This document shows positions 7,376-53,934 of a DNA stretch of 64,000 nt, one piece after another; within the stretch, counting starts at the first letter, position 1; every line of letters begins with the position of its first letter. The stretch is from Eledone cirrhosa (lineage: Eukaryota), in assembly GCA_964016885.1 (NCBI GenBank), contig OZ024741.1, positions 266,724,001 through 266,788,000 of the forward strand. Direction: 5' to 3'. The position numbers were made by a program, and so were the translations under genes. The notes under the pieces are model-generated. The model did not search any database. It was given only the letters and a program-made list of their open reading frames with translations, and had not been told where the DNA came from.

Positions 7376-10300
7376 GATCTGGTGATCAGCTCCTTTCTTC
7401 TGCCAGGAGTTGTGACTGACAGATAGTATCAGTAATGGAAAGACCTATGGAAACATGGCTTCTATGGTCAAATCTGGTGATCAGCTCCTTTCTTCTGCCA
7501 GGAGTTGTGACTGACAGATAGTATCAGTAATGGAAAGACGTATGGAAACATAGTTTCTATCGTCAGATCTGGTGATCAGCTCCTTTCTTCTGCCAGGAGT
7601 TGTGACTGACAGATAGTATCAGTAATGGAAAGACCAATTGAAACATAGTTTCTATGGTCAGATCTGGTGATCAGCTCCTTTCTTCTGCCAGGAGTTGTGA
7701 CAGACAGATAGTACCAGTAATGGAAAGACCTATGGAAACATGGCTTCTATGGTCAAATCTGGTATTCAGCTCCTTTCTTCTGCCAGGAGTTGTGACTGAC
7801 AGATAGTATCAGTAATGGAAAGACCTATGGAAACATAGTTTCTATGGTCAGATCTGGTGATAAGCCCCTTTCTTCTGCCAGGAGTTGTGACTGACAGATA
7901 GTATCAGTAATGGAAAGACCTATGGAAACATAGTTTCTATCGTCAGATCTGGTGATCAGCTCCTTTCTTCTGCCAGGAGTTGTGATTGACAGATAGTATC
8001 AGTAATGGAAAGACCTATGGAAACATAGTTTCTATGGTCAGATCTGGTGATCAGCTCCTTTCTTCTGCCAGGAGTTGTGACTGACAGATAGTATCAGTAA
8101 TGGAAAGACCTATGGAAACATAGCTTCTATGGTCAGATCTGGTGATCAGCTCCTTTCTTCTGCCAGGAGTTGTGACAGACAGATAGTATCAGTAATGGAA
8201 AGACCAACGGAAACATAGTTTCTATGGTCAGATCTGGTGATCAGGTCCTTTCTTCTGCCAGGAGTTGTGACTGACAGATAGTATCAGTAATGGAAAGACC
8301 AATTGAAACATAGCTTCTATGGTCAGATCTGGTGATCAGCTCCTTTCTTCTGCCAGGAGTTGTGACTGACAGATAGTATCAGTAATGGAAAGACCTATGG
8401 AAACATAGTTTCTATGGTCAGATCTGGTGATCAGCTCCTTTCTTCTGTCAGGAGTTGTGACTGAGAGATAGTATCAGTAATGGAAAGACCAATTGAAACA
8501 TAGTTTCTATGGTCAGATCTGTTGATCAGCTCCTTTCTTCTGCCAGGGGTTGTGACTGACAGAAAGTATCAGTAATGGAAAGACCAATGGAAACATAGTT
8601 TCTATGGTCAGATCTGGTGATCAGCTCCTTTCTTATGCCAGGAGTTGTGACTGACAGATAGTATCTGTAATGGAAAGACCAATTGAAACATAGTTTCTAT
8701 GGTCAGATCTGGTGATCAGCTCCTTTCTTCTGCCAGGAGTTGTGACTGACAGATAGTATTAGTAATGGAAAGACCAATGGAAACATAGTTTCTATGGTCA
8801 GATCTGGTGATCAGGTCCTTTCTTCTGCCAGGAGTTGTGACTGACATATTGTATCAGTAATGGAAAGACCAATTGAAACATAGCTTCTATGGTCAGATCT
8901 GGTGATCAGCTCCTTTCTTCTGCCAGGAGTTGTGACAGAGAGATAGTATCAGTAATGGAAAGACCTATGGAAACATTGCTTCTATGGTCAGATCTGGTGA
9001 TCAGCTCCTTTCTTCTGCCAGGAGTTGTGACTGACAGATAGTATCAGTAATGGATAAACCAATTGAAACATAGTTTCTATCGTCAGATCTGGTGATCAGC
9101 TCCTTTCTTCTGTCAGGAGTTGTGACTGACAGATAGTATCAGTAATGGAAAGACCTATGGAAACATAGTTTCTATGGTCAGATCTGGTGATCAGTTCCTT
9201 TCTTCTGCCAGGAGTGGTGACTGACAGATAGTATCAGTAATGGAAAGACCAATTGAAACATAGCTTCTATGGTCAGATCTGGTGATCAGATCCTTTCTTC
9301 TGCCAGGAGTTGTGACAGACAGATAGTATCAGTAATGGAAAGACCAATGGAAACATAGTTTCTATGGTCAGATCTGGTGATAAGCTCCTTTCTTCTTTCA
9401 GGAGTTGTGACTGACAGATAGTATCAGTAATGGAAAGACCTATGGAAACATAGCTTCTATCGTCAGATCTGGTAATCAGCTCCTTTCTTCTGCCAGGAGT
9501 TGTGACTGATAGATAGTATCAGTAATGGAAAGACCTATGGAAACATAGTTTCTATGGTCAGATCTGGTGATCAGCTCCTTTCTTCTGCAAGGAGTTGTGA
9601 CTGACAGATAGTATCAGTAATGGAAAGACCAATTGAAACATAGTTTCTATCGTCAGATCTGGTGATCAGCTCCTTTCTTCTGCCAGGAGTTGTGACTGAC
9701 AGATAGTATCAGTAATGGAAAGACCTATGGAAACATAGCTTCTATGGTCAGATCTGGTGATCAGCTCCTTTCTTCTGCCAGGAGTTGTGATGACAGATAG
9801 TATCAGTAATGGAAAGACCAATTGAAACATAGCTTCTATGGTCAGATCTGTTGATCAGCTCCTTTCTTCTGCCAGGAGTTGTGACAGACAGATAGTATCA
9901 GTAATGGAAAGACCAATGGAAACATAGTTTCTATGGTCAGATCTGGTCATCAGGTCCTTTCTTCTGCCAGGAGTTGTGACTGACATATTGTATCCGTAAT
10001 GGAAAGACCAATTGAAACATAGCTTCTATGGTCAGATCTGGTGATCAGCTCCTTTCTTCTGCCAGGAGTTGTGACTGACAGATAGTATCAGTAATGGAAA
10101 GACCTATGGAAACGTAGCTTTTATGGTCAGATCTGGTGATCAGCTCCTTTCTTCTGCCAGGAGTTGTGACAGAGAGATAGTATCAGTAATGGAGAGACCT
10201 ATGGAAACATAGTTTCTATGGTCAGATCTGGTGATCAGCTCCTTTTCTTCTGCCAGGAGTTGTGACTGTAAGATAGTATCATTAATGGAAAGACCTATGG

Positions 10301-13300
10301 AAACATAACTTCTATGGTCAGATCTGGTGATCAGCTCCTTTCTTCCGCCAGGAGTTGTGACTGACAGATAGTATCAGTAATGGAAAGACCAATTGAAACA
10401 TAGCTTCTATGGTCAGATCTGGTGATCAGCTCCTTTCTTCTGCCAGGAGTTGTGACTGACAGATAGTATCAGTAATGGAAAGACCTATGGAAACATAGTT
10501 TCTATGGTCAGATCTGGTGATCAGCTCCTTTCTTCTGTCAGGAGTTGTGACTGAGAGATAGTATCAGTAATGGAAAGACCAATTGAAACATAGTTTCTAT
10601 GGTCAGATCTGTTGATCAGCTCCTTTCTTCTGCCAGGAGTTGTGACTGACAGAAAGTATCAGTAATGGAAAGACCAATGGAAACATAGTTTCTATGGTCA
10701 GATCTGGTGATCAGCTCCTTTCTTATGCCAGGAGTTGTGACTGACAGATAGTATCTGTAATGGAAAGACCAATTGAAACATAGTTTCTATCGTCAGATCT
10801 GGTGATCAGCTCCTTTCTTCTGCCAGGAGTTGTGACTGACAGAAAGTATCAGTAATGGAAAGACCAATGGAAACATAGTTTCTATGGTCAGATCTGGTGA
10901 TCAGCTCCTTTCTTCTGCCAGGAGTTGTGACAGACAGATAGTATCAGTAATGGAAAGACCTATGGAAACATTGCTTCTATGGTCAGATCTGGTGATCAGC
11001 TCCTTTCTTCTGCCAGGAGTTGTGACTGACAGATAGTATCAGTAATGGATAGACCAATTGAAACATAGTTTCTATCGTCAGATCTGGTGATCAGCTCCTT
11101 TCTTCTGTCAGGAGTTGTGACTGACAGATAGTATCAGTAATGGAAAGACCTATGGAAACATAGTTTCTATGGTCAGATCTGGTGATCAGTTCCTTTCTTC
11201 TGCCAGGAGTTGTGACTGACAGATAGTATCAGTAATGGAAAGACCAATTGAAACATAGCTTCTATGGTCAGATCTGGTGATCAGGTCCTTTCTTCTGCCA
11301 GGAGTTGTGACAGACAGATAGTATCAGTAATGGAAAGACCAATGGAAACATAGTTTCTATGGTCAGATCTGGTGATAAGCTCCTTTCTTCTGCCAGGAGT
11401 TGTGACTGACAGATAGTATCAGTAATGGAAAGACCTATGGAAACATAGCTTCTATCGTCAGATCTGGTAATCAGCTCCTTTCTTCTGCCAGGAGTTGTGA
11501 CTGATAGATAGTATCAGTAATGGAAAGACCTATGGAAACATAGTTTCAATGGTCAGATCTGGTGATCAGCTCCTTTCTTCTGCCAGGAGTTGTGACTGAC
11601 AGATAGTATCAGTAATGGAAAGACCAATTGAAACATAGTTTCTATCGTCAGATCTGGTGATCAGCACCTTTCTTCTGCCAGGAGTTGTGACTGATAGATA
11701 GTATCAGTAATGGAAAGACCAATTGAAACATAGCTTCTATGGTCAGATCTGGTGATCAGCTCCTTTCTTCTGCCAGGAGTTGTGACAGACAGATAGTATC
11801 AGTAATGGAAAGACCTATGGAAACATAGTTTCTATGGTCAGATCTGGTCATCAGGTCCTTTCTTCTGCCAGGAGTTGTGACTGACATATTGTATCAGTAA
11901 TGGAAAGACCAATTGAAACATAGCTTCTATGGTCAGATCTGGTGATCAGCTCCTTTCTTCTGCCAGGAGTTGTGACTGACAGATAGTATCAGTAATGGAA
12001 AGACCTATGGAAACATAGCTTCTATGGTCAGATCTGGTGATCAGCTCCTTTCTTCTGCCAGGAGTTGTGACAGAGAGATAGTATCAGTAATGGAGAGACC
12101 TATGGAAACATAGTTTCTATGGTCAGATCTGGTGATCAGCTCCTTTCTTCTGCCAGGAGTTGTGACTGTAAGATAGTATCAGTAATGGAAAGACCTATGG
12201 AAACAGAGCTTCTATGGTCAGATCTGGTGATCAGCTCCTTTCTTCCGCCAGGAGTTGTGAGTGACAGATAGTATCAGTAATGGAAAGACCTATGGAAACA
12301 TAGTTTCTATGGTCAGATCTGGTGATCAGCTCCTTTCTTATGCCAGGAGTTGTGACTGACAGATAGTATCTGTAATGGAAAGACCAATTGAAACATAGTT
12401 TCTATGGTCAGATCTGGTGATCAGCTCCTTTCTTCTGCCAGGAGTTGTGACAGACAGATAGTATCAGTAATGGAAAGACCTATGGAAACATTGCTTCTAT
12501 GGTCAGATCTGGTGATCAGCTCCTTTCTTCTGCCAGGAGTTGTGACTGACAGATAGTATCAGTAATGGATAGACCAATTGAAACATAGTTTCTATGGTCA
12601 GATCTGGTGATCAGCTCCTTTCTTCTGCCAGGAGTTGTGACTGACAGATAGTATCAGTAATGGAAAGACCAATGGAAACATAGTTTCTATGGTCAGATCT
12701 GGTGATCAGGTCCTTTCTTCTGCCAGGAGTTGTGACTGACATATTGTATCACTAATGGAAAGACCAATTGAAACATAGCTTCTATGGTCAGATCTGGTGA
12801 TCAGCTCCTTTCTTCTGCCAGGAGTTGTGACAGACAGATAGTATCAGTAATGGAAAGACCTATGGAAACATTGCTTCTATGGTCAGATCTGGTGATCAGC
12901 TCCTTTCTTCTGCCAGGAGTTGTGACTGACAGATAGTATCAGTAATGGATAGACCTATGGAAACATAGTTTCTATGGTCAGATCTGGTGATCAGTTCCTT
13001 TCTTCTGCCAGGAGTTGTGACTGACAGATAGTATCAGTAATGGAAAGACCAATTGAAACATAGCTTCTATGGTCAGATCTGGTGATCAGGTCCTTTCTTC
13101 TGCCAGGAGTTGTAACTGACATATTGTATCAGTAATGGAAAGACCAATTGAAACATAGTTTCTATGGTCAGATCTGGTGATCAGCTCCTTTCTTCTGCCA
13201 GGAGTTGTGACAGACAACTAGTATCAGTAATGGAAAGACCAATGGAAACATAGTTTCTATGGTCAGATCTGGTGATAAGCTCCTTTCTTCTGTCAGGAGT

Positions 13301-14984
13301 TGTGACTGACAGATAGTATCAGTAATGGAAAGACCTATGGAAACATAGTTTCTATGGTCAGATCTGGTGATCAGTTCCTTTCTTCTGCCAGGAGTGGTGA
13401 CTGACAGATAGTATCAGTAATGGAAAGACCAATTGAAACATAGCTTCTATGGTCAGATCTTTCTTCTGCCAGGAGTTGTGACAGACAGATAGTATCAGTA
13501 ATGGAAAGACCAATGGAAACATAGTTTCTATGGTCAGATCTGGTGATAAGCTCCTTTCTTCTGCCAGGAGTTGTGACTGACAGATAGTATCAGTAATGGA
13601 AAGACCAATGGAAACATAGTTTCTATTGTCAGATCTGGTGATCAGCTCCTTTCTTCTGCCAGGAGTTGTGACAGACAGATAGTATCAGTAATGGAAAGAC
13701 CAATTGAAACATAGCTTCTATGGTCAGATCTGGTGATCAGCTCCTTTCTTCTGCCAGGAGTTGTGACAGACAGATAGTATCAGTAATGGAAAGACCAATT
13801 GAAACATAGCTTCTATGATCAGATCTGGTGATCAGCTCATTTCTTCTGCCAGGAGTTGTGACTGACAGATAGTATCAGTAATGGAAAGACCTATGGAAAC
13901 ATAGTTTCTATGGTCAGATCTGGTGATCAGCTACTTTCTTCTGTCAGGAGTTGTGACTGAGAGATAGTATCAGTAATGGAAAGACCAATTGAAACATAGT
14001 TTCTATGGTCAGATCTGGTGATCAGCTCCTTTCTTCTGCCAGGAGTTGTGACTGACAGATAGTATCAGTAATGGAAAGACCAATGGAAACATAGTTTCTA
14101 TGGTCAGCTCTGGTGATCAGCTCCTTTCTTCTGCCAGGAGTTGTGACAGACAGATAGTATCAGTAATGGAAAGACCAATTGAAACATAGCTCCTATGATC
14201 AGATCTGGTGATCAGCTCCTTTCTTCTGCCAGGAGTTGTGACTGACAGATAGTATCAGTAATGGAAAGACCTATGGAAACATAGCTTCTATGGTCAGATC
14301 TGGTGATCAGCTCCTTTCTTCTGCCAGGAGTTGTGACTGACAGATAGTATCAGTAATGGAAAGACCAATGGAAACATAGCTTCTATGATCAGATCTGGTG
14401 ATCAGCTCCTTTCTTCTGCCAGGAGTTGTGACTGACAGATAGTATCAGTAATGGAAAGACCTATGGAAACATAGTTTCTATGGTCAGATCTGGTGATCAG
14501 GTCCATTCTTCTGCCAGGAGTTGTGACTGACAGATAGTATCAGTAATGGAAAGACCAATTGAAACATAGCTTCTGTGGTCAGATCTGGTGATCAGCTCCT
14601 TTCTTTTGCCAGGAATTGTGACTGAGAGATAGTATCAGTAATGGAAAGACCTATGGAAACATAGTTTCTATAGTCATATCTGGTGATCAGCTCCTTTCTT
14701 CTGTCAGGAGTTGTGACTGAGTGATAGTATCAGTAATGGAAAGACCAATTGAAACATAGTTTCTATGGTCAGATCTGGTGATCAGCTCCTTTCTTCTGCC
14801 AGGTGTTGTGACTGACAGATAGTATCAGTAATGGAAAGACCAATGGAAACATAGTTTCTATGGTCAGATCTGGTGATCAGCTCCTTTCTTCTGCCAGGAG
14901 TTGTGACTGACAGATAGTATCAGTAATGGAAAGACCAATTGAAACATAGCTTCTATGGTCAGATCTGGTGATCAGCTCCTTTCC
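7376..14984. repeat. 95-bp tandem satellite array, about 80 units
   Basis: Unit gatctggtgatcagctcctttcttctgccaggagttgtgactgacagatagtatcagtaatggaaagacctatggaaacatagtttctatggtca. Unit starts at 7376, 7471, 7566 and so on. Confidence 0.98.
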
Positions 14985-16004: not shown

Positions 16005-16125
16005 TGATTGTGGTTGTAGTTGCAGGGTGGTGGTGATTGCTGTTGTGTTTGCTTTATGGGGGTTATGTATATATATATGTGTGTGTGTGTATATACATAA
16101 ACATACTTACAAATATGTATATATA

Positions 16126-16160
<35 letters not shown>

Positions 16161-16163
<3 letters not shown>

Positions 16164-16743
16164 GTTATATAGTAAGGTGCATTATTGGTTGTGTAAAATG
16201 GTCCAATAACTTTATGTTAGCAATATTAAGTTCTCCACGCTTTTGTATATCTCCAATTCCATTCGAGGGAACAGCTAGATGATGTAAAACGGAGTATAAG
16301 TATCAACATGAAAATCCGAAGGCAATGTAAAATTCCAATCATTTAATCACGACACATGTTTCAATAAGAGATAGATCGATTGTGAAGCCATGATCGATTA
16401 TCACTGATCTCATCAGGTGAAAATGAATTGTCTTCAAATTCTTGACATGAGGGAGAAAAATAACGATGTTCTCTCACAGAATTCATTCCCTCATATGAGG
16501 TGATAATCGATCATGGCTTCACAATCGATCTATCTCTTATTGAAACACGTGTCGTGATTAAATGATTGGAATTTTACCTTGCCTTCGGATTTTCATTTTG
16601 ATACTTATACTCCGTTTTACATCATCTAACTGTTCCCTCGAATGGAATTGGAGATATACAAAAGCGTGGGGAACTTAATATTGCTAACATAAAGTTATTG
16701 GACCATTTTACACAACCAATAATGCACCTTACTATATAACAAC
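16161..16743. repeat. Long inverted repeat (arms 16161-16404 and 16500-16743)
   Basis: The arms are reverse complements with few mismatches, bounded by (TA)n on both sides. Confidence 0.95.
16347..16420 (-). ncRNA. Type I hammerhead ribozyme
   Basis: tcac CTGATGA gatcag...atcgat hairpin...cttatt GAAAC atgt GTC gtga. The base of helix II is imperfect. Confidence 0.65.
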
Positions 16744-16754
16744 TATATATATAT

Positions 16755-17189
16755 ATTCTATTTCATTTATCGTTTTCGGTGCGCCCAGCCGACTGAACTC
16801 ACTCGATATGCAAATTAGGCTGCTCAGCCGTTAATATGCATAAGGAAAGTATATACTTTCAGACGTTCAACCATCTGGCAGAAAGGTATACGATGCTGAC
16901 GATAGCTAATAAGGTTGAAACTAGTACATCGTTCCTGTGTCAGTGTTGAATAAAAAGGTGACTTGGTTGCCTAAACACTGTACGGCGTAATTCGGGGTGT
17001 TTGTTTGTTTACAAACAAACAAACCGAGCATTATAATAAATGTTCGGTAAACCGATACGTGCATGTAGGTATATGTATACATACTACTGTACGTGTGTAT
17101 ACATATATGTATGTACGTATACATACATACATACTTGCATTTAAGTAAGTGCCGTACTAACAGTGAGAAATGAAATTTCGTTTCATTCT

Positions 17190-17192
<3 letters not shown>
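16755..17192 (+). mobile_element. About 430-nt hammerhead-bearing retrozyme-like element (family R)
   Basis: Other copies at 18045-18375, 21400-22122 and 28413-28744. No coding capacity; one HHR per unit. Confidence 0.7.
16890..16932 (+). ncRNA. Minimal type I hammerhead (family R)
   Basis: acgatg CTGACGA tagctaataaggtt GAAAC ta GTA catcgt, with a perfect 6-bp helix I. Confidence 0.85.
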
Positions 17193-17234
<42 letters not shown>

Positions 17235-17470
17235 TATATATACATATTTGTAAGTATGTTTATGTATACACACACACACATATATATATATACATACCCC
17301 CCCCCCCATAAAGCAAACACAACAGCAATCACCACCACCCCACAACCACAATCACAACACTTCCACTCCGCCACCACCAAATAGCAAGTCATTTCTCTCT
17401 TTTATTATAACGTTGCTTATTTTCAAGTTACTACATTATATTTCATATATGTACTGAACTGGACTAGTTT

Positions 17471-17558
<88 letters not shown>

Positions 17559-17592
17559 GGAAAATGAATGCTAAACAATTATAATGATGATG

Positions 17593-17665
<73 letters not shown>

Positions 17666-17846
17666 CCCGAATCTTCCTGATCGTAATTTTTCGGTCGTAT
17701 GGTTGATTTTAGACATAATCTATGTGTGTTGGTATTTTAACGATAGTTATAGCTCTGATTTCTCTGAATTATTGAGCCCTCTGCCACTCATGTCGAATTT
17801 TGTTTATCGTGAACTCGTGCGCCGATTTTTCGATACTCGATTATTC

Positions 17847-17884
<38 letters not shown>

Positions 17885-17911
17885 AGGGAGTGTAACTTGG
17901 AGTATCTTATT

Positions 17912-17968
<57 letters not shown>

Positions 17969-18044
17969 CCATAAATATTCAGACCAATTCATATCTGAAT
18001 GTTAGCTAATGGGAATATAGAACAAAAGATTATATATATATAGA

Positions 18045-18375
18045 AACAATGAAACGAAATTTCATTTCTCACTCTTAGTACTTAAATATAAGTATGTATA
18101 CGTACATACATATATATATACAGACGTACAGTAGTATGTATATATATACATACATGCACACATATATATATGTACGTATGGATGGTTGGTAAACACTGTA
18201 CGACTTAATTCGGGATGTTTGTTTGTTTACAAACAAACCGAGCATTATGATAAATGTTCGGTAAATCCATACGTATATATACATATATATGTGTGCATGT
18301 ATGTATATATATATATACATACTACTGTACGTCTGTATACATATATATATGTACGTATACATATAAAAACATACT
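18045..18375. mobile_element. Family R fragment in fold-back arrangement
   Basis: 18045-18182 is family R on the minus strand; 18183-18375 is family R on the plus strand. Confidence 0.75.
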
Positions 18376-18433
<58 letters not shown>

Positions 18434-18450
18434 TGTGTATGTATCCCCCC

Positions 18451-18512
<62 letters not shown>

Positions 18513-18984
18513 CATGAATTATCACCTACATACAAAAATTAGCAAAACATGAAAATCTGACAATGTCAGTTTACACAGTAAATATACATACATATACACA
18601 TTCATAAATACATACACATACATACGTATATATACACATGCATAAATACATACACATAGATACGTACATACATACATACACACACAATCATGTATATATA
18701 TCTGATGCCCACGCACACACAAACATATGTATGTATGAATATTAAACTGACATTGGTACATTTTCTTGTTTCCCTTATTTGTCTTTGTATGTATGTGTTT
18801 TTGTAGTAAATATATATACATTCTCTCCTTATCTTAATTTATATTCCTTTGAAGTTCCGATGAGCCGCTCTGTTTTTAGAGTAGCGAAACAATTGTACGC
18901 TTTGGCTTCTAACTTATTCACCAATCTCTCCTCTCTTATCTCCTTTCCTCTCCATCTCTCTCTTTAAGATTGGTTACTCTTGAA

Positions 18985-19045
<61 letters not shown>

Positions 19046-19607
19046 CAGGTTTAGCAAATAATGAAAAAGTTTCAAAATAAATTTTAAAAAATTGACTTTA
19101 CTTACTATAGTTACCTTATATATATATATATACATTTAAAGTATATGATAAACACGAAATGTGTTTACATTGCAACAGACAAAGTTAGCTATTAATGAAA
19201 TAAACTAATAAAAGTGAATACAATTTGTCTGTCTCGATACAAGTCAATAAAGACAAGGTTATATTGGCAACTGCCATAATTCCTGGACATATTTAAATTT
19301 CAAAATTCAAACCTGTTCTGTAGACGAATTTGAACCTCGAAACCCAAATAAGTTTCGCAATGGTGGAATGTGAATTGAAAAATAAAGAGAATCGAAATGG
19401 AATAGAAATAAAAGAGTGAAATGTCCAAATCATCTGTGCATATCAACAGGAATCCAGAAAGATTAGTCTATCACACATCAACAATTTTGCAGGACTGACT
19501 ACACGTGGGTAGGCAGGCCAAAACTAGCTATCCCACATTCACGGTGCTAGAAATAACAGCCGCTTATGCAGGATTAAAGATCAGCTCTTACAATAAAGGA
19601 GCTATAC

Positions 19608-20012
19608 ATTATATTATATTTTGAGAATAAACTCTCAGTCGTTTACAATAATTAAGCTCCAGGAAGGGGCTCTTCCGAGCAGTTAAATACATTTAAAGTA
19701 TATGATAAACACGAAATGTGTTTACATTGCAACAGACAAAGTTAGCTATTAATGAAATAAACTAATAAAAGTGAATACAATTTGTCTGTCTCGATACAAG
19801 TCAATAAAGATTTTATTGACTTGTATCGAGACAGACAAATTGTATTCACTTTTATTAGTTTATTTCATTAATAGCTAACTTTGTCTGTTGCAATGTAAAC
19901 ACATTTCGTGTTTATCATATACTTTAAATGTATTTAACTGCTCGGAAGAGCCCCTTGCTGGAGCTTAATTATTGTAAACGACTGAGAGTTTATTCTCAAA
20001 ATATAATATAAT
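19608..20012. repeat. Near-perfect palindrome centred at about 19810
   Basis: 19608-19808 is the reverse complement of 19812-20012. Part of the left arm is also directly repeated at 19130-19252. Confidence 0.95.
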
Positions 20013-20028
20013 ATATATATATATATAT

Positions 20029-20060
<32 letters not shown>

Positions 20061-21380
20061 TTCGTTTCTGAATCTGTCTAGCAAGATTCTTTATCTGAAA
20101 ACGTGTGTTGAAACCGATATTGTTATACTTTGGGAGGGTCATGTTGCTAATAAGAAACACACGCACCAGTTGCTTTCACTTCAATTTATTATAAATTAAA
20201 TTTATAAATTTCTGGTTGGTTGGTTGGTTCCACAACCAGATGATTGTTCATATATTGTCAAAGTTCTTTCGTCACACATTCTGTGACCTCTTTTCTTTGT
20301 TTTTGTGCCTCTCCTTTGTTCAGCCCTACGCCATCTTGTTTTTAAAAAAAACAAGATAGCGTAGGGCTGATCGCATTAGGCGATTTAGCGATCTCTTTCT
20401 CTCTCTCTTAGTCTTTCTCTTTTTAGATAGATACATAGATATTACGTTGCGCCCTTATAATTGTTTCTACGTTTGTTTCTACGTTAGGCACAAGGCCAGC
20501 AATTACCCAGTGCATTACTGGTACTTTATTTTATCGACCCCGTAAGGATGAAAGGCAAAGTTAACCTTGGCGGGATTTGCGCCCTTATAATCTCTGTCTG
20601 TATGCCTGGCTGTCTGCATTACGTCATTATGACGCTGTGTGTGTGTGTGTGTGTGTGTATATAGTGTGTGTATATATATATATAGTGTGTAACGTTTTTC
20701 GAAATATTTACTTTTGCGTTCACAGATTTTTTTATTTTAATTTCAGAAGATCCCGTTAAGGGTGAAAGCAGCGATTCTTTGCTTAAACTTTAATCTGTCA
20801 TTTTAATATATATATGTATATATATTGTTATACTTTGGGAGAATCATGTTGCCAATAAGAAACACACGCACCAGTTGCTTTCACTCCAATTTATTATAAA
20901 TCAAATTTATAAATTTAAGGATTTATAAATTTCCGATTGGTTGGTTGGTGGTTGGTTCCAAAAAACCAACCAGTAACATATAAATAAACAAATAAATAAA
21001 CAAATAAAAACACATACAGACACCCGGATGTAACACATGCGCAAACGAAACACACAACACACACAAAAACAAGATGGCGTAGGACAGAACAAAGGAGAGG
21101 CACAAAACAAAGAGAAGAATCCCCAGTCACTGAAGAGGTCACAGAATGTGTGACGAAAGAACTTTGACAATATACGAACAACCGTCCGGTTGTGGAACCA
21201 ACCAACCAACCGGAAATTTATAAATCCTTAAATTTATAAATTTAATTTATAATAAATTGGAGTGAAAGCAACTGGTGCATGTGTTTCTTATTGGCAACAT
21301 GACCCTCCCAAAGTATAACAATATCGGTTTCAACACACGTTTTCAGATAAAGAATCTTGCTAAACAAATTCAGAAACGAT
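20061..21380. repeat. Dispersed repeat family in direct and inverted copies (20061-20370, 20825-21380; also 33830-33960)
   Basis: Shared gttatactttgggagggtcatgttgc...ggttggttgg. 20825-20945 is inverted against 21200-21325. Confidence 0.8.
20459..20578 (-). mobile_element. SINE family A, 3' fragment
   Basis: Same core and tail as the full copies. Confidence 0.85.
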
Positions 21381-21399
21381 ATATATATGTATATATATA

Positions 21400-22122
21400 C
21401 ATACATACACACATATGTATATGTACGTATGGTTTTACCGAGCATTTATTATAATGCTCGGTTTGTTTGTAACCAAATATCCCGAATTAAGCCGTACAGT
21501 GTATAGCAACCATCGTTGCCCTTTTGTTCAACACTGACAAAGGAACGATGTACTAGTTTCAAGCTTATTAGCTATCGTCAGCACCGTATAGTTTCCCAAA
21601 CCAAAACCATACGTACATATATATGTGTGTGCATGTATATATATATATATACATACTACTGTACGTCTGTATACATATATGTATGTACGTATACATACTT
21701 ATATTTAAGTAACAGCCGTACTAAGAGTGAGAAATGAAATTTCGTTTCATTTTTTTCCATTTATCGATTTCGGTACGCCCGGCCGATTAACTCACTCGAT
21801 ATGCAAATTAGGCTGCTCAGCCGTTAATATGCATAAGGAAAATATATACTTTCAAACGTTCAATCATCTGGCAAGAAGGTATACGTTGCTGACGATAGCT
21901 AATAAGGTTGAAACTAGTTCATCGTTCCTTCGTCAGTGTTGAACAAAAGGGCAACGATGGTTGCTAGACACTGTACGGCTTAATTCGGGATATTTGGTTA
22001 CAAACAAACCGAGCATTATAATAAATGCTCGGTAAAACCATACGTACATATATATATGTGTGCATGTATGTATATATATACATAGTACTGTATACATATA
22101 TGTATGTACGTATACATACTTA
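21400..22122. mobile_element. Family R: inverted partial copy followed by a partial tandem (more than one unit)
   Basis: 21400-21590 on -, then 21603-22122 on +, with ccatacgtacatatat repeated about 430 bp apart. HHRs at 21545-21587 (-) and 21883-21925 (+). Confidence 0.8.
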
Positions 22123-22417
22123 AGATATATATATACTTATAAAGTGTTTATTGAAATTTGTATTCTATACTTAAGGAAAATTGATAATTAATTTCACATT
22201 TGCTGTAAAAATCGTATAAGCTTACCCGTTCGGTAAAGCTAATAATAATGATTTCTTTATTAGTTACTCAGGGCTGACATTAAACAAACAATAGAGATGA
22301 CACAGGATGATACAGTGTAGGGGTTGTGGGTAAAAAAGGAGGTTATAACAAAAACTAAAAAATAAACATTTAAAAAAAACAAAACAGATTCCCCAATGGG
22401 GGGGGGGGGGGGAGGGG

Positions 22418-22935
22418 CTCTGAGGGTCACTTGTGGAGAAAGTCCACAATAAGCCATGGTCACTCTGATTGCCAGGGGAGGGACCTCTGAGAGTCACTTG
22501 TGGAGAAAGTCCACAATAAGCCATGGTCACTCTGATTGCCAGGGGAGGGACCTCTGAGAGTCACTTGTGGAGAAAGTCCACAATAAGCCAGGTCACTCTG
22601 ATTGCTAGGGGAGGGACCTCTGAGAGTCACTTGTGGAGAAAGTCCACAATAAGCCAGGTCACTCTGATTGCTAGGGGAGGGACCTCTGAGGTTACCTTGT
22701 GAAGAAAGTTCACAATAAGCCCCCGTCACCCTGATTGCTAGGGGAGTGACTTCTGAGGGTCACTTGTGGAGAAAGTCCACAATAAGCCAGGTCACTCTGA
22801 TTGCTAGGGGAGTGACCTCTGAGGGTCACTTGTGAAGAAAGTCCACAATAAGCCACCGTCATCCTGATTGCTAGGGGAGGGACCTCTGAGGGTCACTTGT
22901 GAAGAAAGTCCACAATAAGCCCCTGATTGCTAGGG
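22418..22935. repeat. 66-67-bp minisatellite, about 8 units
   Basis: Unit ctctgagagtcacttgtggagaaagtccacaataagccaggtcactctgattgctaggggagggac. Confidence 0.95.
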
Positions 22936-23419
22936 CAAGTGTCCTCTGCTAGTTATCCTCCTCCAATATACAGACATATACTCAAAGCAGGTCATTCACT
23001 CAGACCCTTCTCCCCACTCTCACCCACCTTTCAACTCATTGGAAGGCAGCACTTCTCGCACCATCCTGGTTTTCCTTTTCAAGTGAGACCTGAAAAAATT
23101 AAATAGGCCTTTTCCAAAGCAGAAAGTGCTTGTCTTCGACCCTTTTAAACATGTCCACCACACGACCTCTTTTGCCATGGCCACCTGGCAGATAAAAACT
23201 ACATGTCCTTCCTGGCTAAAAGAAGGAAGTTGAGCAAACTTCACAATGGACTCTGCTGATAACTGGATCCATTCTACATGTGACAGCAGGTGTTCAACAT
23301 AAACCCACAAGTCAATACTCGGACACTCAACAAGTGTTTGCAGGATGGTTTCCTAGCCCTGAGCACATCTCAGACACACTTGGCCGATGGCACTTTCCAA
23401 ACAATTTTGTGGGGGGGGG

Positions 23420-23755
23420 GGTCGATTATATCAAACCCAGTATATTACTGGTACTATATTTTATCAACCCCTTAAGGATAAAAGGCAAAAGTAACATTGG
23501 CTGGATTTGAACTCAGAATCTAAAGGAACAAAACTATATGCTGTAAAGCATGCCTGGTGCTCTAACGGTGCTGCCAATAATAATAATTGTTTCTACTTTA
23601 GGCACAAGGCCAGCAATTACCCAGTACATTACTGGTACTTTATTTTATCGACCCCGTAAGGATGAAAGGCAAAGTTAACCTCGGCGGGATTTGAACTCAG
23701 ATCGTAAAGGGACGTAACTACGCTGGAAAGCATGGCGTCCGACCCTCTGCCAATA
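23420..23755 (-). mobile_element. Two tandem SINE family A copies (diverged 23420-23580, younger 23586-23755)
   Basis: Both carry the B-box complement ggatttgaactcag and the central core. Confidence 0.85.
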
Positions 23756-23869
23756 GTGAATTATAGGTGCAAGGCTAACAATTTGGAGGAGGGCTGAATA
23801 CATCAACCCCAGTATTTAACTGGTACTTTATATGTGGTGGTAGTGATGGTATACGCAGTATTGATAGTA

Positions 23870-24013
23870 GCGGCTGTGGTGTTGATGTATACATAAGTAG
23901 TAGTAGTTGTAGTAATAGTAGCAGTACTGTTGTTGTTGTGGTGGTGGTGGTGGTAGTTGTGTTGTTGATGTTGTGGGAGATGGTGTGTAGTGGTAAAACT
24001 GGTGTTGTTGTTG

Positions 24014-24049
<36 letters not shown>

Positions 24050-24129
24050 GTATTGTTTGTGGTGATAATAGTAGTGTTGTTATTGTGGGAGATGGTGTGT
24101 AGTGGTGGTGGTAGTAATAGTAGTAGTAA

Positions 24130-24179
<50 letters not shown>

Positions 24180-24180
24180 A

Positions 24181-24216
<36 letters not shown>

Positions 24217-24228
24217 CAGCAGCAGCAT
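23870..24228. repeat. (TAG)n/(TGG)n/(TTG)n trinucleotide tract
   Basis: Direct reading. Confidence 0.95.
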
Positions 24229-24399
24229 AACATTTTTTTTAAATCCCCGGTGCAAGCAGACCCCCCCCCCACATGTCTCACACACCCACGCATATGTTCA
24301 CACCTTGTCACTTTTCAAAAACACAAACACACACACTCTATTACACATACACAATCACACACACAAACACATACACATACACAACCACACCCACAAACA

Positions 24400-26790
24400 C
24401 ATACACACACTTTCACATATACACAATCACATGCACACACACACAACCACACACACACTTTCACATATACACAATCACATGCACGCACACACACAACCAC
24501 ACACACACTTTCACATATACACAATCACATGCACGCACACACACAACCACACACACACTTTCACATATACACAATCACATGCACGCACACACAACCACAC
24601 ACACTCTTTCACATATACACAATCACATGCACGCACACACACAACCACACACACTTTCACATATACACAATCACATGCACGCACACACACAACCACACAC
24701 ACACTTTCACATATACACAATCACATGCACGCACACACAATCACACACACACTTTCACATATACACAATCACATGCACACACACACAACCACACACACAC
24801 TTTCACATATACACAATCACATGCACGCACACATACAACCACACACACACTTTCACATATACACAATCACATGCACGCACACACACAACCACACACACAC
24901 TTTCACATATACACAATCACATGCACGCACACACAACCACACACACATTTTCACATATACACAATCACATGCACGCACACACAACCACACACACAATTTC
25001 ACATGTACACAATCACATGCACGCACACACACAACCACACACACACTTTCACATATACACAATCACATGCACGCACACACACAACCACACACACACTTTC
25101 ACATATACACAATCACATGCACGCACACACACAACCACACACACACTTTCACATATACACAATCACATGCACGCACACACAACCACACACACACTTTCAC
25201 ATATACACAATTACATGCACACACACACAACCACACACACACTTTCACATATACACAATCACATGCACGCACACACACAACCACACACACACTTTCACAT
25301 ATACACAATCACATGCACGCACACACACAACCACACACACACTTTCACATATACACAATCACATGCACGCACACACAACCACACACACACTTTCACATAT
25401 ACACAATCACATGCACGCACACACAACCACACACACAATTTCACATGTACACAATCACATGCACGCACACACACAACCACACACACACTTTCACATATAC
25501 ACAATCACATCCACGCACACACACAACCACACACACACTTTCACATGTACACAATCACATGCATGCACACACACAACCACACACACACTTTCACATATAC
25601 ACAATCACATGCACGCACACACAACCACACACACACTTTCACATATACACAATCACATGCACGCACACACACAACCACACACACACTTTCACATATACAC
25701 AATCACATGCACGCACACACAACCACACACACACTTTCACATATACACAATCACATGCACGCACACACAACCACACACACACTTTCACATGTACACAATC
25801 ACATGCACGCACACACACAACCATACACACACTTTCACATATACACAATCACATGCACGCACACACAACCACACACACACTTTCACATATACACAATCAC
25901 ATGCACGCACACACACAACCACACACACACTTTCACATATACACAATCACATGCACGCACACACACAACCACACACACACTTTCACATATACACAATCAC
26001 ATGCACGCACACACACAACCACACACACACTTTCACATATACACAATCACATGCACGCACACACACAACCACACACACACTTTCACATATACACAATCAC
26101 ATGCACGCACACACACAACCACACACACACTTTCACATATACACAATCACATGCACGCACACACAACCACACACACACTTTCACATATACACAATCACAT
26201 GCACGCACACACACAACCACACACACACTTTCACATATACACAATCACATGCACGCACACACAACCACACACACACTTTCACATATACACAATCACATGC
26301 ACGCACACACAACCACACACACAATTTCACATGTACACAATCACATGCACGCACACACACAACCACACACACACTTTCACATATACACAATCACATGCAC
26401 GCACACACAACCACACACACAATTTCACATGTACACAATCACATGCACGCACACACACAACCACACACACACTTTCACATATACACAATCACATGCACGC
26501 ACACACACAACCACACACACACTTTCACATATACACAATCACATGCACGCACACACACAACCACACACACACTTTCACATATACACAATCACATGCACGC
26601 ACACACAACCACACACACACTTTCACATATACACAATCACATGCACGCACACACACAACCACACACACACTTTCACATATACACAATCACATGCACGCAC
26701 ACACAACCACACACACACTTTCACATATACACAATCACATGCACGCACACACACAACCACACACACAATTTCACATGTACACAATGACAT
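24400..26790. repeat. 48-50-bp CA-rich minisatellite, about 48 units
   Basis: Unit actttcacatatacacaatcacatgcacgcacacacacaaccacacacac; length varies by CA slippage. Confidence 0.97.
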
Positions 26791-27527
26791 GCACACACAC
26801 ACACACACATACTCACACAACCATACACACAACCATACACACACACACACACACACAATCATACAGACACACGCACAATCACATACCAACAATCACATGC
26901 ACACACACACACAACCATATATGCACGACCGCACGCACACACACATACACAACCACACACACACACACATAAGCGTGTAACAAACGACCTTCCACATGAG
27001 TGGCGGATAGATGGTGACTAGGATGTTAATCCCACCCCGTCCCCGTCAACAGCAACAACAACAGTACGTGCTCTCTCTCTCTCTCTCATTCTATCTATCT
27101 ATCAGTCTCTCTCTCTACTCTATTCTACTCTATCAGTTACAGAGGCCACTGCAGTGTTAGTGTGTGGTGCCGTGTTGGGACATGAATCTATTTTACCACC
27201 ACCACCACCACCACCATCATCATCATCACTGTAATAATCACCGTCACTATATGTAAAGTCTTGCAGATGGAGGTATATATACATGTATATTTATTTATTT
27301 ATTTATAGTTTTATATGTAGATATATCATTTTTTGACCGGTGTTTTGTTTGTGTTCTATCTACCTGTCCGTCTGTCTCTTTATCTATCTATCTATCTATT
27401 TATTGGGCAAAATCGATTAATTTTTAAATTACATTGGTGATAATATTTTACGCGTTTTTATTGTATGTAAACTTCCCCCTTTGTATTTGTCCCTTTCTTT
27501 TGTGCCCCTGTGGCTAATAAAGAAACA

Positions 27528-27570
<43 letters not shown>

Positions 27571-27997
27571 TTGTGTGTTTATCTGTCTGTCCGTTCGTCT
27601 GTCTGTTTACCTGCCTTTCTGTCTATCCATATATCTAGTTTGTGCGCTATCTAGGAGCATGTTGTGAAAGGAGCACTTGCACAACATGCTCCTGGAGTTG
27701 AGGGTTGTTCTATCTACGGGGTATAAAACAACCCCTTTGTAACGCCTCCCCACTATTGGGGATTTCGATTGTTGAATTTTTTTTTTTTTTTACACGATTG
27801 TATGTAAGATCTCCGGCATATGTCCTTGTATTGTCCCCTTTTCTTGAGCGCCCTTGTGGCAAATAAAGAAATATATCTATCTGTCTGTCCTAACTATTTA
27901 TCTACCTGCCTACCTACCTATCTATCTGTCTGTGCGACTGTCTGTTTACCTGTCTTTCTGTTTATCTATCTATCTGTCTATTTATCCAACTGTCTCT

Positions 27998-28045
<48 letters not shown>

Positions 28046-28083
28046 ATACATGTACCCATACAAACACACAGATAGAAAGAATA

Positions 28084-28113
<30 letters not shown>

Positions 28114-28118
<5 letters not shown>

Positions 28119-28413
28119 TCTAAAGTCTGTCTTAAGCCAGAAGGCTCATTTGGCCGGTGCTTGTCCCGGTTTCATCGCGTGAAGCGACTGAGAGTACAAG
28201 ACCCCCCCCCCCCCCCCTGGACAGGACACCAGTCCATCGCAGGGTTAAACCCCGAGTTATTGCTGGTACTCATTTTCAGCTGAGTAAACTAGAGCAACGT
28301 GAATTAAAGTGTCTTGCTCAAGGAAACAACACATCACCCGGTCCGAGAATTGAACTCACAACCTTTTCGATTGCAAGCCTGATGTTCTAACCCCTAAGCC
28401 ATGCGCCTTCACA
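28114..28413 (-). mobile_element. tRNA-derived SINE family B, full length
   Basis: Minus strand: A box tggcttaggggttag, B box gagttcaattctc, then ttgagcaagacactt and cctgcgatggactgg. Matches 60373-60652. Confidence 0.88.
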
Positions 28414-28494
28414 CACTGACACAGGAACGCTGCTACTCAGCCGTTAATATGCATAAGGTAAGTATATACGTTCAACAATCTGGCAGGAAGGTAT

Positions 28495-28537
28495 ACGTTG
28501 CTGACGATAGCTAATAAGCTTGAAACTAGTACAGCGT
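28495..28537 (+). ncRNA. Minimal type I hammerhead (family R copy 28413-28744)
   Basis: acgttg CTGACGA t agct-aata-agct t GAAAC ta GTA cagcgt. Confidence 0.85.
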
Positions 28538-28740
28538 TCCTGTGTCAGTGTTGAACAAACGAGCAACGATGGTTGCTAGACACTACGGCTTAATACGGGA
28601 TGTTTGTTTACAAACACACCCAGCATTATAATAAATGTTCGGTGAATCCATACGTACATATATATATATGTGTGCATGTATGTATATATATATACATACT
28701 TCTGTACGTCTGTATACATATATGTATGTACGTGTACATA

Positions 28741-28805
<65 letters not shown>

Positions 28806-34175: not shown

Positions 34176-34242
34176 TATTACTGAGGACCTATTTAGTTTT
34201 TATAGAGAATATTGGAATATATATATATATATATATATATAT

Positions 34243-34340
34243 AACGAAGGAGTTGTGGTAAGGAACCAGATGGACCAAAACACACCAGAGTACTCAATAC
34301 TTAGGGTAGTAGAGTGGGTAATAGGAAAATGTATGACCCC
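34243..34340 (-). mobile_element. Family H1 3' segment starting at GGGGTCATAC
   Basis: Near-identical to 37-138 in reverse complement. Confidence 0.9.
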
Positions 34341-34394
34341 AAAAATATGGAACGCTTCACGAATTTGCGTGTCATTCTTGCGCAGGGGCCCTGC
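34341..34394 (-). pseudogene. U6: U6 snRNA 3'-half retrocopy
   Basis: Minus strand GCAgGGCCCCTGCGCAAGaATGACACGCAAATTCGTGAAGCGTTCCATATTTTT. This has two mismatches to the metazoan U6 3' half as I recall it. 5'-truncated. Confidence 0.95.
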
Positions 34395-34407
34395 ATATAT
34401 ATATATA

Positions 34408-34836
34408 TTTAATTGTAGAATTAAATCTAACTGTCCTTTAAATAATAACTGTTTAGTTAAAAATGTGGTTTACAAATGTAATGTTAAAACCAACGATAAT
34501 TCTTTCAATTATGTTGGCTCTACTTCTATTGACTCCAAATCTCGTTTCAACAACCATAAATGTTCGTTTAGGAATATTGGTAAAAAATCTTCAACTTCTC
34601 TATCCAACTTATTATGGAACTTAAAATCCAAGAATATAAACTATTCTTTATCTTGGAATATTGTTTCGAATGAACATGCCTACATAAACACCTCTTTATC
34701 CAAATTTTGCAACCTATGCGTTGAAGAAATATTCTTTATACTTAAATGTAAGAACTCCATTAATTTACGTAATAATTTATTTAGTTCTTGTAAACATCAA
34801 TTAAATTCAACTTTTAGATATATATATAAAATGTAA
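34408..34836 (+). pseudogene. Penelope-like GIY-YIG endonuclease fragment (5'-truncated)
   Basis: NC...NCPL...C....VVYKC.V......YVGST....KSRF..H..SF......TSLS..LW.LK......SW.I......Y......CNLC.EE...I......N.R......CKH. Same motif order as 2004-2498. Followed by a very AT-rich tail to 35862. Confidence 0.88.
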
Positions 34837-36061: not shown

Positions 36062-37602
36062 NCTTACACTTGGCCAACCTCTGCACCTCCAAAACTTACA
36101 CTTGGCCAAGTTCTGCACCTCCAAAACCTAGACCTGGCCAACTTCTGCACCTCCAAAACTTACACTTCGCCAAGTTCTGCACCTCCAAAACTTACACTTG
36201 GCCAAGTTCTGCACCTCCAAAACTTACACTTGGCCAAGTTCTGCACCTCCAAAACTTACACTTGGCCAACTTTTGCACCTCCAAAACCTAGACCTGGCCA
36301 ACCTCTGCACCTCCAAAACTTACACTTGGCCAACCTCTGCACCTCCAAAACTTACACTTGGCCAAGTTCTGCACCTCCAAAACTTACACTTGTCCAAGTT
36401 CTGCACCTCCAAAACTTACACTTGTCCAAGTTCTGCACCTCCAAAACTTACACTTGGCCAAGTTCTGCACCTCCAAAACTTACATTTGGCCAACCTCTGC
36501 ACCTCCAAAACTTACACTTGGCCAACCTCTGCACCTCCAAAACTTACACTTGGCCAACCTCTGCACCTCCAAAACTTACACTTGGCCAACCTCTGCACCT
36601 CCAAAACTTACACTTGGCCAACTTCTGCACCTCCAAAACTTACACTTGGCTAACCTCTGCACCTCTAAAACTTACACTTGGCCAAGTTCTACACCTCCAA
36701 AACTTACACTTGTCCAAGTTCTGCACCTCCAAAACTTACACTTGGCCAAGTTCTGCACCTCCAAAACTTACACTTGTCCAAGTTCTGCACCTCCAAAACT
36801 TACACTTGTCCAAGTTCTGCACCTCCAAAACTTACACTTGTCCAAGTTCTGCACCTCCAAAACTTACACTTGTCCAAGTTCTGCACCTCCAAAACTTACA
36901 CTTGGCCAAGTTCTGCACCTCCAAAACTTACATTTGGCCAACCTCTGCACCTCCAAAACTTACACTTGGCCAACCTCTGCACCTCCAAAACTTACACTTG
37001 GCCAACCTCTGCACCTCCAAAACTTACACTTGGCCAACCTCTGCACCTCCAAAACTTACACTTGGCCAACTTCTGCACCTCCAAAACTTACACTTGGCTA
37101 ACCTCTGCACCTCCAAAACTTACACTTGGCCAAGTTCTGCACCTCCAAAACTTACACTTGGCCAACCTCTGCACCTCCAAAACTTACACTTGGCCAACTT
37201 CTGCCAACTTCTGCACTCCAAAACTTACACTTGGCCAACCTCTGCACCTCCAAAACTTACACTTGGCCAACCTCTGCACCTCCAAAACTTACACTTGGCC
37301 AACCTCTGCACCTCCAAAACTTACACTTGGCCAAGTTCTGCACTTCCAAAACTTACACTTGGCCAACCTCTGCACCTCCAAAACTTACACTTGGCCAAGT
37401 TCTGCACCTCCAAAACTTACACTTGGCCAACCTCTGCACCTCCAAAACTTACACTTGGCAAGTTCTGCACCTCCAAAACTTACACTTGGCCAGTTCTGCA
37501 CCTCCAAAACTTACACTTGGCAAGTTCTGCACCTCCAAAACTTACACTTGGCCAAGTTCTGCACTCAAAACCTTACACTTGGCCAACCTCTGCACCTCCA
37601 AA
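36062..37602. repeat. 32-bp minisatellite, about 48 units, abutting the gap
   Basis: Unit cttacacttggccaacctctgcacctccaaaa. Confidence 0.97.
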
Positions 37603-53913: not shown

Positions 53914-53934
53914 ACAATATATTAATATATATAT

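What the first reader, a model, noticed from the sequence alone, without database searches (positions are those of the whole stretch)
16755..28744. About 430-nt non-coding, circularly permuted hammerhead element (retrozyme candidate)
Seen: four loci share one unit that carries a compact HHR. The copy at 16755-17192 starts and ends near tttcatt. The copy at 21603-22122 reads through that point and repeats its own start about 430 bp later. Other copies end at catactta. Helix I differs between copies (acgatg/catcgt versus acgttg/cagcgt) yet still pairs. Established: animal non-LTR retrozymes are short tandem HHR repeats that yield circular RNAs and are proposed to be mobilised by PLEs. Inference: this is such a family, copied from circular or multimeric RNA.
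Basis: partly seen in the sequence, partly recalled or inferred. Interest (0 to 1): 0.7.

Follow-up and report, generated by a model that had tools for sequence, protein, structure and literature searches.

The report
Hammerhead mini-retroelement with Penelope-type insertion scars
A 430-base non-coding repeat carrying a self-cutting RNA motif is scattered through this animal genome with the insertion scars of Penelope-like retrotransposons, so it is most likely a new member of a known class of parasitic RNAs (retrozymes) that borrow a Penelope enzyme to copy themselves.

Summary
Largely confirmed, with corrections. Four loci share a 430-nt ORF-less unit. Three of them carry a type I hammerhead (four motifs, one on the minus strand); locus 18043-18377 has none. 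Copy A is exactly one unit plus a 7-nt overlap. Copy B reads through the end-to-start junction (about 1.2 units), so the template was circular or head-to-tail. No head-to-tail hammerhead dimer occurs in the window.

There are also two recurrent 3' ends separated by a 46-57-nt tail, and the copies sit in (TA)n. These are published footprints of Penelope-like element (PLE) insertion. The hammerhead has the canonical retrozyme layout (6-bp helix I, 4-bp helix II with a U-U base, palindromic helix III), not the minimal PLE form. The unit folds far better than shuffles (z -7.6 and -8.8).

Best reading: a non-autonomous, PLE-mobilised, retrozyme-like element (0.8). A circular RNA template is plausible but not shown; a partly cleaved tandem transcript fits equally well. 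New member of a known kind; its value is junction-level support for the proposed PLE-retrozyme link.

The parts
16756..17193 (+). Copy A: one full 430-nt unit plus a 7-8-nt terminal overlap, between (TA)n runs; includes the 3' tail (17137-17193)
16890..16932 (+). Type I hammerhead of A: helix I 6 bp, CUGACGA core at 16896, GAAA at 16917, palindromic ACUAGU helix III, cut after 16926 (GUA); helix II has a G-G mismatch in the canonical register or pairs in a shifted register
18043..18183 (-). Locus C inverted arm: 3' part of the unit including a 46-nt tail; no hammerhead
18181..18377 (+). Locus C forward arm, unit position ~207 to the CATACTTA end, no tail; 3-nt microhomology (GAT) with the inverted arm
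21379..21590 (-). Locus B inverted arm, unit ~132-357; 7 differences in 205 nt from the forward arm
21545..21587 (-). Hammerhead of the B inverted arm (core at 21581, cut after 21551, GUA; helix I 6 of 6 paired)
21591..21602 (+). 12-nt filler at the B inversion junction; its last 6 nt match the sequence just 5' of the hairpin at whose base the forward arm begins (possible RT skip)
   Evidence: inference
21603..22122 (+). Locus B forward arm, about 1.2 units: 3' part, tail (21702-21757), end-to-start junction (21750-21757), then unit start to the CATACTTA end
21883..21925 (+). Hammerhead of B forward (core at 21889, cut after 21919); GUU triplet and a U-U mismatch in helix I, probably weakened
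28408..28432 (-). Locus D short inverted arm, unit ~172-195, joined to the 3' end of a SINE-like repeat; its inner end lies at, or within 5 nt of, the first base after the hammerhead cut site
28432..28744 (+). Locus D forward arm, unit ~64 to the CATACTTA end, followed by (TA)n
28495..28537 (+). Hammerhead of D (core at 28501, cut after 28531, GUA); the best-formed copy, aligns weakly to Rfam HH9

Best explanation
The unit is a non-autonomous retroelement of about 430 nt, a retrozyme-like mini-PLE, copied in trans by the RT and GIY-YIG endonuclease of an autonomous Penelope-like element. Steps: (1, inferred) a locus with head-to-tail copies is transcribed into more-than-unit RNA. (2, inferred) The hammerhead cuts it, probably as a double hammerhead through the ACUAGU palindrome, and a host ligase may close monomers into circles. 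(3, footprints shown, enzyme inferred) The PLE protein cuts both strands of a (TA)n target and starts reverse transcription from one or both ends, mostly at two preferred internal sites: after CATACTTA and 46-57 nt further on. (4, shown as structure) The cDNAs stop at variable points and are joined head to head by microhomology or filler, giving inverted arms with the tail on one side. (5, shown) The RT can run across the unit junction, giving 1.02- and 1.2-unit copies. A cut-to-cut linear monomer cannot be the template for A, B or D, because these read through the cut site. The template is a ligated circle or an incompletely cleaved tandem RNA; I put it at 0.5 that circles are made and about 0.3 that they are the template.
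For: Inverted arms at 3 of 4 loci, two recurrent 3' ends (3 and 2 of the 7 arms) and a partial tandem at B match the PLE structures described in PMC8557442 (passages) and the two-site internal initiation with extension of both strands shown in vitro in PMC11167929. 6 of 8 locus ends lie within 15 nt of a (TA)5+ run against 15% of the window. A different hammerhead family in the window shows the same fold-back with a longer 3' end on one arm (53932-54257). Two C-terminal GIY-YIG fragments of RT-EN proteins show that this genome has hosted EN+ PLEs. There is no ORF: the longest sense ATG frame is 37 aa. GC is 38%. Circular folds have z -7.6 and -8.8, with 0 of 60 shuffles as low; without the TA-rich stretch z is -4.3 and -3.5. 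The hammerhead layout matches the canonical metazoan type of PMC4209133, and a U-U base of helix II occurs in axolotl HHR_Amex2 (PMC7229834).
Against: No head-to-tail hammerhead dimer in the window (0 of 4 loci). The tail is longer than the 30-40 nt described for PLEs. Two of the 7 arms (B inverted, D inverted) start away from the two preferred sites. The unit has no detected homology to the PLE fragments in the window. The hammerhead is not significantly more conserved than the rest of the unit (4 of 43 against 31 of 173 variable columns, p 0.25), and RNAalifold found 0 of 32 pairs with compensatory change and did not recover the hammerhead fold. In B the helix I pairs have probabilities of only 0-0.56, and in A and B-forward the canonical helix II register is not favoured. 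A competing dimer through helix II is predicted more stable than the double hammerhead (-20.7 against -17.6 kcal/mol). The element's own 3' part is TA-rich, which inflates the (TA)n count. Copies are only 88-90% identical, so these loci are old.
Confidence: 0.8

Rival explanations
1. The copies are 5'-truncated pseudo-LTR ends of a long coding PLE, and the read-through at B is a one-off template jump or deletion.
For: Every footprint is also that of autonomous PLEs, most of whose copies are ORF-less 3' ends (PMC4209133; bioRxiv 10.64898/2026.07.22.740005). The junction is read through only once in the window.
Against: A begins exactly where B's junction lies, so two loci agree on a 430-nt period. 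There is no PLE coding match beside any locus: best tblastn E 0.009, about 1 kb from C; the profile hits only 1.9-2.5 kb and 34.1-34.8 kb. The hammerhead is not the minimal PLE form. Caveat: the queries were 150 relatives of one endonuclease, only 2 of them full length.
Confidence: 0.12
2. A Helentron/HINE-type non-autonomous rolling-circle DNA element, with internal microsatellite and 3' hairpin, that happens to carry a hammerhead. The features of that class are recalled, not looked up.
For: A 3' hairpin followed by a T-rich end, an internal TA/TGTA microsatellite, a 9-nt subterminal inverted match (16760 with 17176), and a head-to-tail junction, which rolling-circle copying can also give.
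Against: Variable 5' truncation, inverted arms joined by microhomology, a tail on one side only, and a full hammerhead are not expected. The 9-nt match follows from a short duplication at the junction.
Confidence: 0.04
3. A MITE-like fold-back DNA transposon, or local DNA duplication and inversion in unstable microsatellite DNA.
For: TA flanks, and inverted arms of 96.6% identity at B. The region is full of fold-back repeats.
Against: The arms cover different parts of the unit at each locus, A has no inverted arm, and copies 88-90% alike share 3' ends, which points to independent insertions.
Confidence: 0.04

Closest known systems
Metazoan non-LTR retrozymes (coral, mussel, axolotl; PMC7229834)
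   Same: ORF-less unit at the upper end of the 150-450 bp range, GC below 50%, canonical-layout type I hammerhead with a weak palindromic helix III, U-U at the base of helix II as in HHR_Amex2, highly self-paired predicted circle, more-than-unit genomic copies.
   Different: Here the copies are dispersed 0.5-1.2-unit insertions with inverted arms rather than dimers to multimers. No expression, cleavage or circle has been shown.
EN+ Penelope-like elements (PMC8557442; in vitro mechanism in PMC11167929)
   Same: 5' truncation, partial tandem, inverted 5'-truncated arm, tail at one end, (TA)n targets, hammerhead about 200 nt upstream of the first 3' end.
   Different: No RT-EN ORF; tail 46-57 nt rather than 30-40; hammerhead canonical rather than the minimal PLE variant (helix II 7-8 bp, helix I 4-5 bp).
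Vertebrate retrozyme families related to PLE pseudo-LTRs (bioRxiv 10.64898/2026.07.22.740005)
   Same: Non-autonomous PLE derivative; that study also finds dispersed monomers, in some families all copies.
   Different: That study defines an active retrozyme by two consecutive hammerhead units, which no locus here has. Its case rests on co-occurrence and homology, not on insertion junctions.
Non-autonomous Chlamys elements such as MRC1 (PMC8557442, passage)
   Same: ORF-less PLE passengers that form pseudo-LTRs and head-to-tail insertions.
   Different: Algal; most Chlamys lack canonical hammerheads; they share 3' sequence with a known autonomous partner, and none is identified here.

Membership tests
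Metazoan non-LTR retrozyme | Type I hammerhead of canonical layout (helix I 6 bp, helix II 4 bp, short palindromic helix III) | tested here: met
   layout from PMC4209133. Below Rfam gathering score; 2 of 4 motifs have a G-G mismatch in helix II; loop-loop contacts not tested
Metazoan non-LTR retrozyme | Unit of 150-450 bp, GC below 50% | tested here: met
   430 nt (A), 421-431 (B), GC 38%
Metazoan non-LTR retrozyme | No coding region, no LTR structure | tested here: met
   longest ATG frame 37 aa sense, 67-82 aa antisense; no PLE protein match. PBS and PPT not searched
Metazoan non-LTR retrozyme | Head-to-tail tandem repeats with two or more hammerheads | tested here: inconclusive
   0 of 4 loci in this 64 kb; one 1.2-unit copy has a head-to-tail junction. 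This is a family-level feature and the rest of the genome was not available, so membership is probable, not established
Metazoan non-LTR retrozyme | Highly self-paired circular fold | tested here: met
   predicted only: 64-67% paired, z -7.6 and -8.8
Metazoan non-LTR retrozyme | Self-cleavage and accumulation as linear and circular RNA | not testable with these tools
   no RNA data; one ambiguous footprint at locus D
Autonomous EN+ PLE | RT plus GIY-YIG ORF between pseudo-LTRs | tested here: not met
   none in or beside 4 of 4 loci; not filed as an autonomous PLE
Autonomous EN+ PLE | Inverted 5'-truncated copy at the 5' end; partial tandem | tested here: met
   inverted arm at 3 of 4 loci, partial tandem at 1 of 4
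Autonomous EN+ PLE | 30-40-bp tail, often at one end only | tested here: inconclusive
   tail pattern present (one arm of C, upstream lap of B, end of A) but 46-57 nt long
Autonomous EN+ PLE | Insertion bias for (TA)n or AT-rich DNA | tested here: met
   6 of 8 ends against a 15% background; partly inflated by the element's own TA-rich end
Autonomous EN+ PLE | Minimal hammerhead variant (helix II 7-8 bp, helix I 4-5 bp) | tested here: not met
   helix II 4 bp, helix I 6 bp; the shifted register in A and B-forward leaves one unpaired base before helix II, a PLE-like trait
Helentron/HINE non-autonomous element (features recalled) | Fixed ends with subterminal inverted repeats and a 3' stem-loop | tested here: not met
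   5' ends differ among arms; only a 9-nt inverted match
MITE | Conserved terminal inverted repeats | tested here: not met
   inverted arms differ at each locus and are absent at A

The most novel reading that the evidence does not exclude
These loci record a PLE reverse transcriptase copying a ligated circular retrozyme RNA. A is one complete lap that stops 7-8 nt past its own start site; B is a lap plus about 95 nt of strand displacement; and D's inverted arm marks a 5' end made by self-cleavage in vivo. That would be junction-level genomic evidence for the circle-to-genome step, which the papers I read propose as a model without showing it.
Probability: 0.3. Interest if true: 0.68.

Novelty: new member of a known kind. 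Interest (0 to 1): 0.42.

Why it matters
Which machinery mobilises animal retrozymes is open. PMC7229834 names PLEs only as a strong candidate, PMC7761336 notes that the repeats show no motif pointing to a partner, and the 2026 preprint argues from co-occurrence and homology. Here an ORF-less unit with a retrozyme-type hammerhead shows PLE-type insertion scars. Mapping all copy ends on the unit in this genome would therefore test both the partner and whether the template is circular. The family itself is one more member of a widespread class. My searches found no paper describing such scars for retrozymes or a cephalopod retrozyme, but the library lacks most subscription journals and Repbase/Dfam, and the supplements of PMC7229834 and the preprint could not be read.

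Tried and rejected
Rfam whole-window and regional scans gave no hammerhead at threshold; the miRNA-family hits are TA-rich or fold-back artefacts far below gathering score.

Covariation tests gave no support beyond chance, and the excess conservation of the hammerhead is not significant.

An snRNA-type promoter idea was not adopted. An octamer (motif name recalled) lies in A and B, 233 nt upstream of the point where two arms start, and newt satellite 2 has such a promoter (cited in PMC2220036). But the window holds 5 octamers against 5.4 expected, two of 7 breakpoints fall within 4 nt of each other with probability 0.37, and the filler at B suggests an RT stall at a hairpin instead.

D's breakpoint at the cut site has a 5-17% chance among 7 breakpoints and can be explained by microhomology, so it is kept only as a hint.

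Protein and DNA searches that led nowhere: the word-index search for longer relatives of the endonuclease fragment found none; Pfam did not recognise the fragment or its relatives (0 relevant families for 1 and 8 proteins); the unit has no match in the phage collection. Names for the protein hits could not be obtained, so the PLE clade (Neptune/Nematis-like by the cysteine linker) is my inference.

No eukaryotic genome or transcript collection was available. PMC5785218 (dimeric PLE hammerheads) was not held; I saw only its title.
Full report
SETTING. The window is microsatellite-rich animal genomic DNA. Its SINE-like repeats look to me like those of octopuses; this is recalled and was not verified by any search. 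No animal genome or transcript collection was available, so all sequence evidence comes from these 64 kb.

OBSERVATION. BLAST with three copies as queries finds seven segments of the unit at four loci and nowhere else, apart from low-complexity TA matches. A (16756-17193, +) is one unit of exactly 430 nt with its first 7 nt repeated at its end. C consists of an inverted arm (18043-18183) and a forward arm (18181-18377), and has no hammerhead. B consists of an inverted arm (21379-21590), 12 nt of filler and a forward arm (21603-22122) that runs from unit position ~294 through the end, across the junction without a gap and on to position ~373, with a period of 421-431 nt. D consists of a ~25-nt inverted arm (28408-28432) and a forward arm (28432-28744). 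Outside the microsatellite, A, B and D are 88-90% identical.

THE RIBOZYME. My type I descriptor gives 14 hits in the window against a mean of 0.06 in 100 shuffles; four are this family (16896+, 21889+, 21581-, 28501+). All four have the CUGACGA and GAAA core, a 6-bp helix I, a 14-nt helix II region and ACUAGU as helix III. Three have GUA and one GUU at the cut. Helix II reads U-U, A-U, G-C, C-G around a hexaloop in D and the B inverted arm. A and B-forward have G-G in place of G-C and are predicted to pair in a register shifted by one base. Rfam HH9 aligns in the canonical register, but weakly (17.5 and 13.3 bits against a gathering score of 52), and no hammerhead family reaches threshold. 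PMC4209133 (parts 1-2 of 4 read) defines canonical metazoan type I motifs as helix I 6 bp, helix II 4 bp and a 1-2-bp helix III with a palindromic loop that works as a dimer; it gives the minimal PLE motifs a 7-8-bp helix II. This motif is of the first kind. PMC7229834 (parts 2-4 of 6 and passages; supplement unreadable) reports a U-U base of helix II in an axolotl retrozyme. Against function: the single double-sided change in helix I is within chance (242 of 500 shuffles); the motif is not significantly more conserved than the rest of the unit (p 0.25); RNAalifold found 0 of 32 pairs with compensatory change; and a competing dimer is predicted more stable than the double hammerhead. Activity is therefore inferred, not shown.

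THE UNIT. It has 38% GC and no sense ATG frame above 37 aa, even when concatenated. As a circle it folds at -135.6 (A) and -132.9 (B) kcal/mol, z -7.6 and -8.8, with 0 of 60 shuffles as stable. Without the TA-rich stretch z is still -4.3 and -3.5; the antisense strand of A gives -2.7. Helix I sits at the end of a long rod.

INSERTION FOOTPRINTS. Of seven arms, three end at CATACTTA (B-forward, C-forward, D-forward), and two end 46-57 nt further on, just past a terminal hairpin (A, C-inverted). The other two begin elsewhere. C thus has the extension on one arm only, and B has it in the upstream lap only. PMC8557442 (passages) describes PLE insertions as 5'-truncated partial tandems, often with an inverted 5'-truncated copy, a 30-40-bp tail at one end and microsatellite targets. 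PMC11167929 (parts 1-2 of 4) shows that a purified PLE protein cuts and extends both strands of AT-rich DNA, starts at two internal RNA sites that delimit the tail, and mainly uses uncleaved RNA. Six of eight locus ends are within 15 nt of a (TA)5+ run against 15% of the window. The exceptions are C's right end, followed by a shorter TA run, and D's left end, which abuts a SINE end that is followed by TA at another copy. Inversion junctions show 3-nt microhomology (C), filler (B) and 1-4-nt microhomology (D). An unrelated hammerhead family at 53932-54257 shows the same fold-back with a longer 3' end on one arm. Two GIY-YIG fragments at 1908-2579 and 34270-34830 match 150 of 150 fetched relatives; the two longest of these are RT-EN proteins of about 700 aa. 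No such match adjoins any locus of the unit, within the limits of that query set.

WHAT TEMPLATE. A, both B arms and D-forward read through the cut site, so a cut-to-cut linear monomer is excluded for them. A circle explains why A stops one lap from its start, but an RT stall at the terminal hairpin explains it too, since two other arms begin at the base of another hairpin. The two laps of B differ by 2 substitutions and 10 gap positions in 99 slippage-prone columns, and its two arms by 7 of 205 nt, which does not separate one molecule from two. D's inverted arm ends at or within 5 nt of the first base after the cut site. That would suit a partly cleaved linear multimer, but the chance among seven breakpoints is 5-17% and microhomology can account for it. 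Circle and tandem transcript remain about equally open.

COMPARISON AND VERDICT. The element works like a non-LTR retrozyme moved by a PLE. It meets the size, GC, non-coding, ribozyme-layout and folding features. The tandem-array feature is not seen in the window (0 of 4 loci), and expression, cleavage and circles are untestable here, so membership is probable rather than established. It is not an autonomous PLE (no ORF). The preprint 10.64898/2026.07.22.740005 (parts 1-3 of 5 and a term search; supplements not seen) already argues that animal retrozymes are non-autonomous PLE derivatives, and non-autonomous Chlamys PLEs are known. The class is therefore known. My searches and a recent octopus repeat annotation (PMC13282606, passages and supplement search: no mention of ribozymes) showed no description of this family or of PLE-type junctions in retrozymes; Repbase and Dfam were not searchable. 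Other papers seen as passages only: PMC7761336, PMC8969392, PMC6962438, PMC2220036, PMC8490949. Novelty: new member of a known kind. Interest 0.42.

Noticed in passing
window 1615-, 15678-, 16416-, 21130+, 38187+, 53304+, 54039-, 54150+, 58132-, 61824-: Ten further type I hammerhead descriptor hits from several other families (14 in 64 kb against 0.06 by chance), mostly beside (TA)n. If typical, this genome is extremely rich in hammerheads.
   Followed up: partly
window 16148-16756, 20016-21425, 53932-54257: Fold-back inserts with a hammerhead hit in one or both arms; the first two directly abut copies A and B. They look like MITEs but are probably inverted PLE-type insertions. (TA)n runs act as nested insertion hot spots.
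   Followed up: partly
window 16008-16160 and 17200-17357: An older inverted repeat pair encloses both the 16148-16756 fold-back and copy A, so both landed in its central (TA)n.
   Followed up: no
window 1908-2579 + and 34270-34830 +: Two C-terminal PLE GIY-YIG endonuclease fragments with a cysteine linker (Neptune/Nematis-like by inference); the first is interrupted by a stop codon.
   Followed up: partly
window 34240-34395: The 3' half of U6 snRNA (minus strand; Rfam hit 34341-34441, 52 bits) is joined directly to a repeat with other copies at 37-142, 50598-50686 and 51920-52007: a possible U6 template-switch chimera.
   Followed up: partly
window 16808-16815 and 21801-21808: Octamer motif ATGCAAAT (name recalled) in both copies that cover the site. 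Newt satellite 2 uses an snRNA-type promoter, but the window-wide count is at chance level.
   Followed up: partly
window 19603-20017 and 225-536: Near-perfect long palindromes (98%) of unknown origin, bordered by (TA)n on at least one side.
   Followed up: no
window 7376-14983, 22409-22921, 24367-26917, 36063-37623: Minisatellite arrays with periods of 95, 67, 50 and 32 nt; the second and third lie inside the finding's span but are unrelated to the unit.
   Followed up: no
window 58489-58559 -: tRNA-like sequence (Rfam 51.7 bits), possibly the head of a SINE.
   Followed up: no
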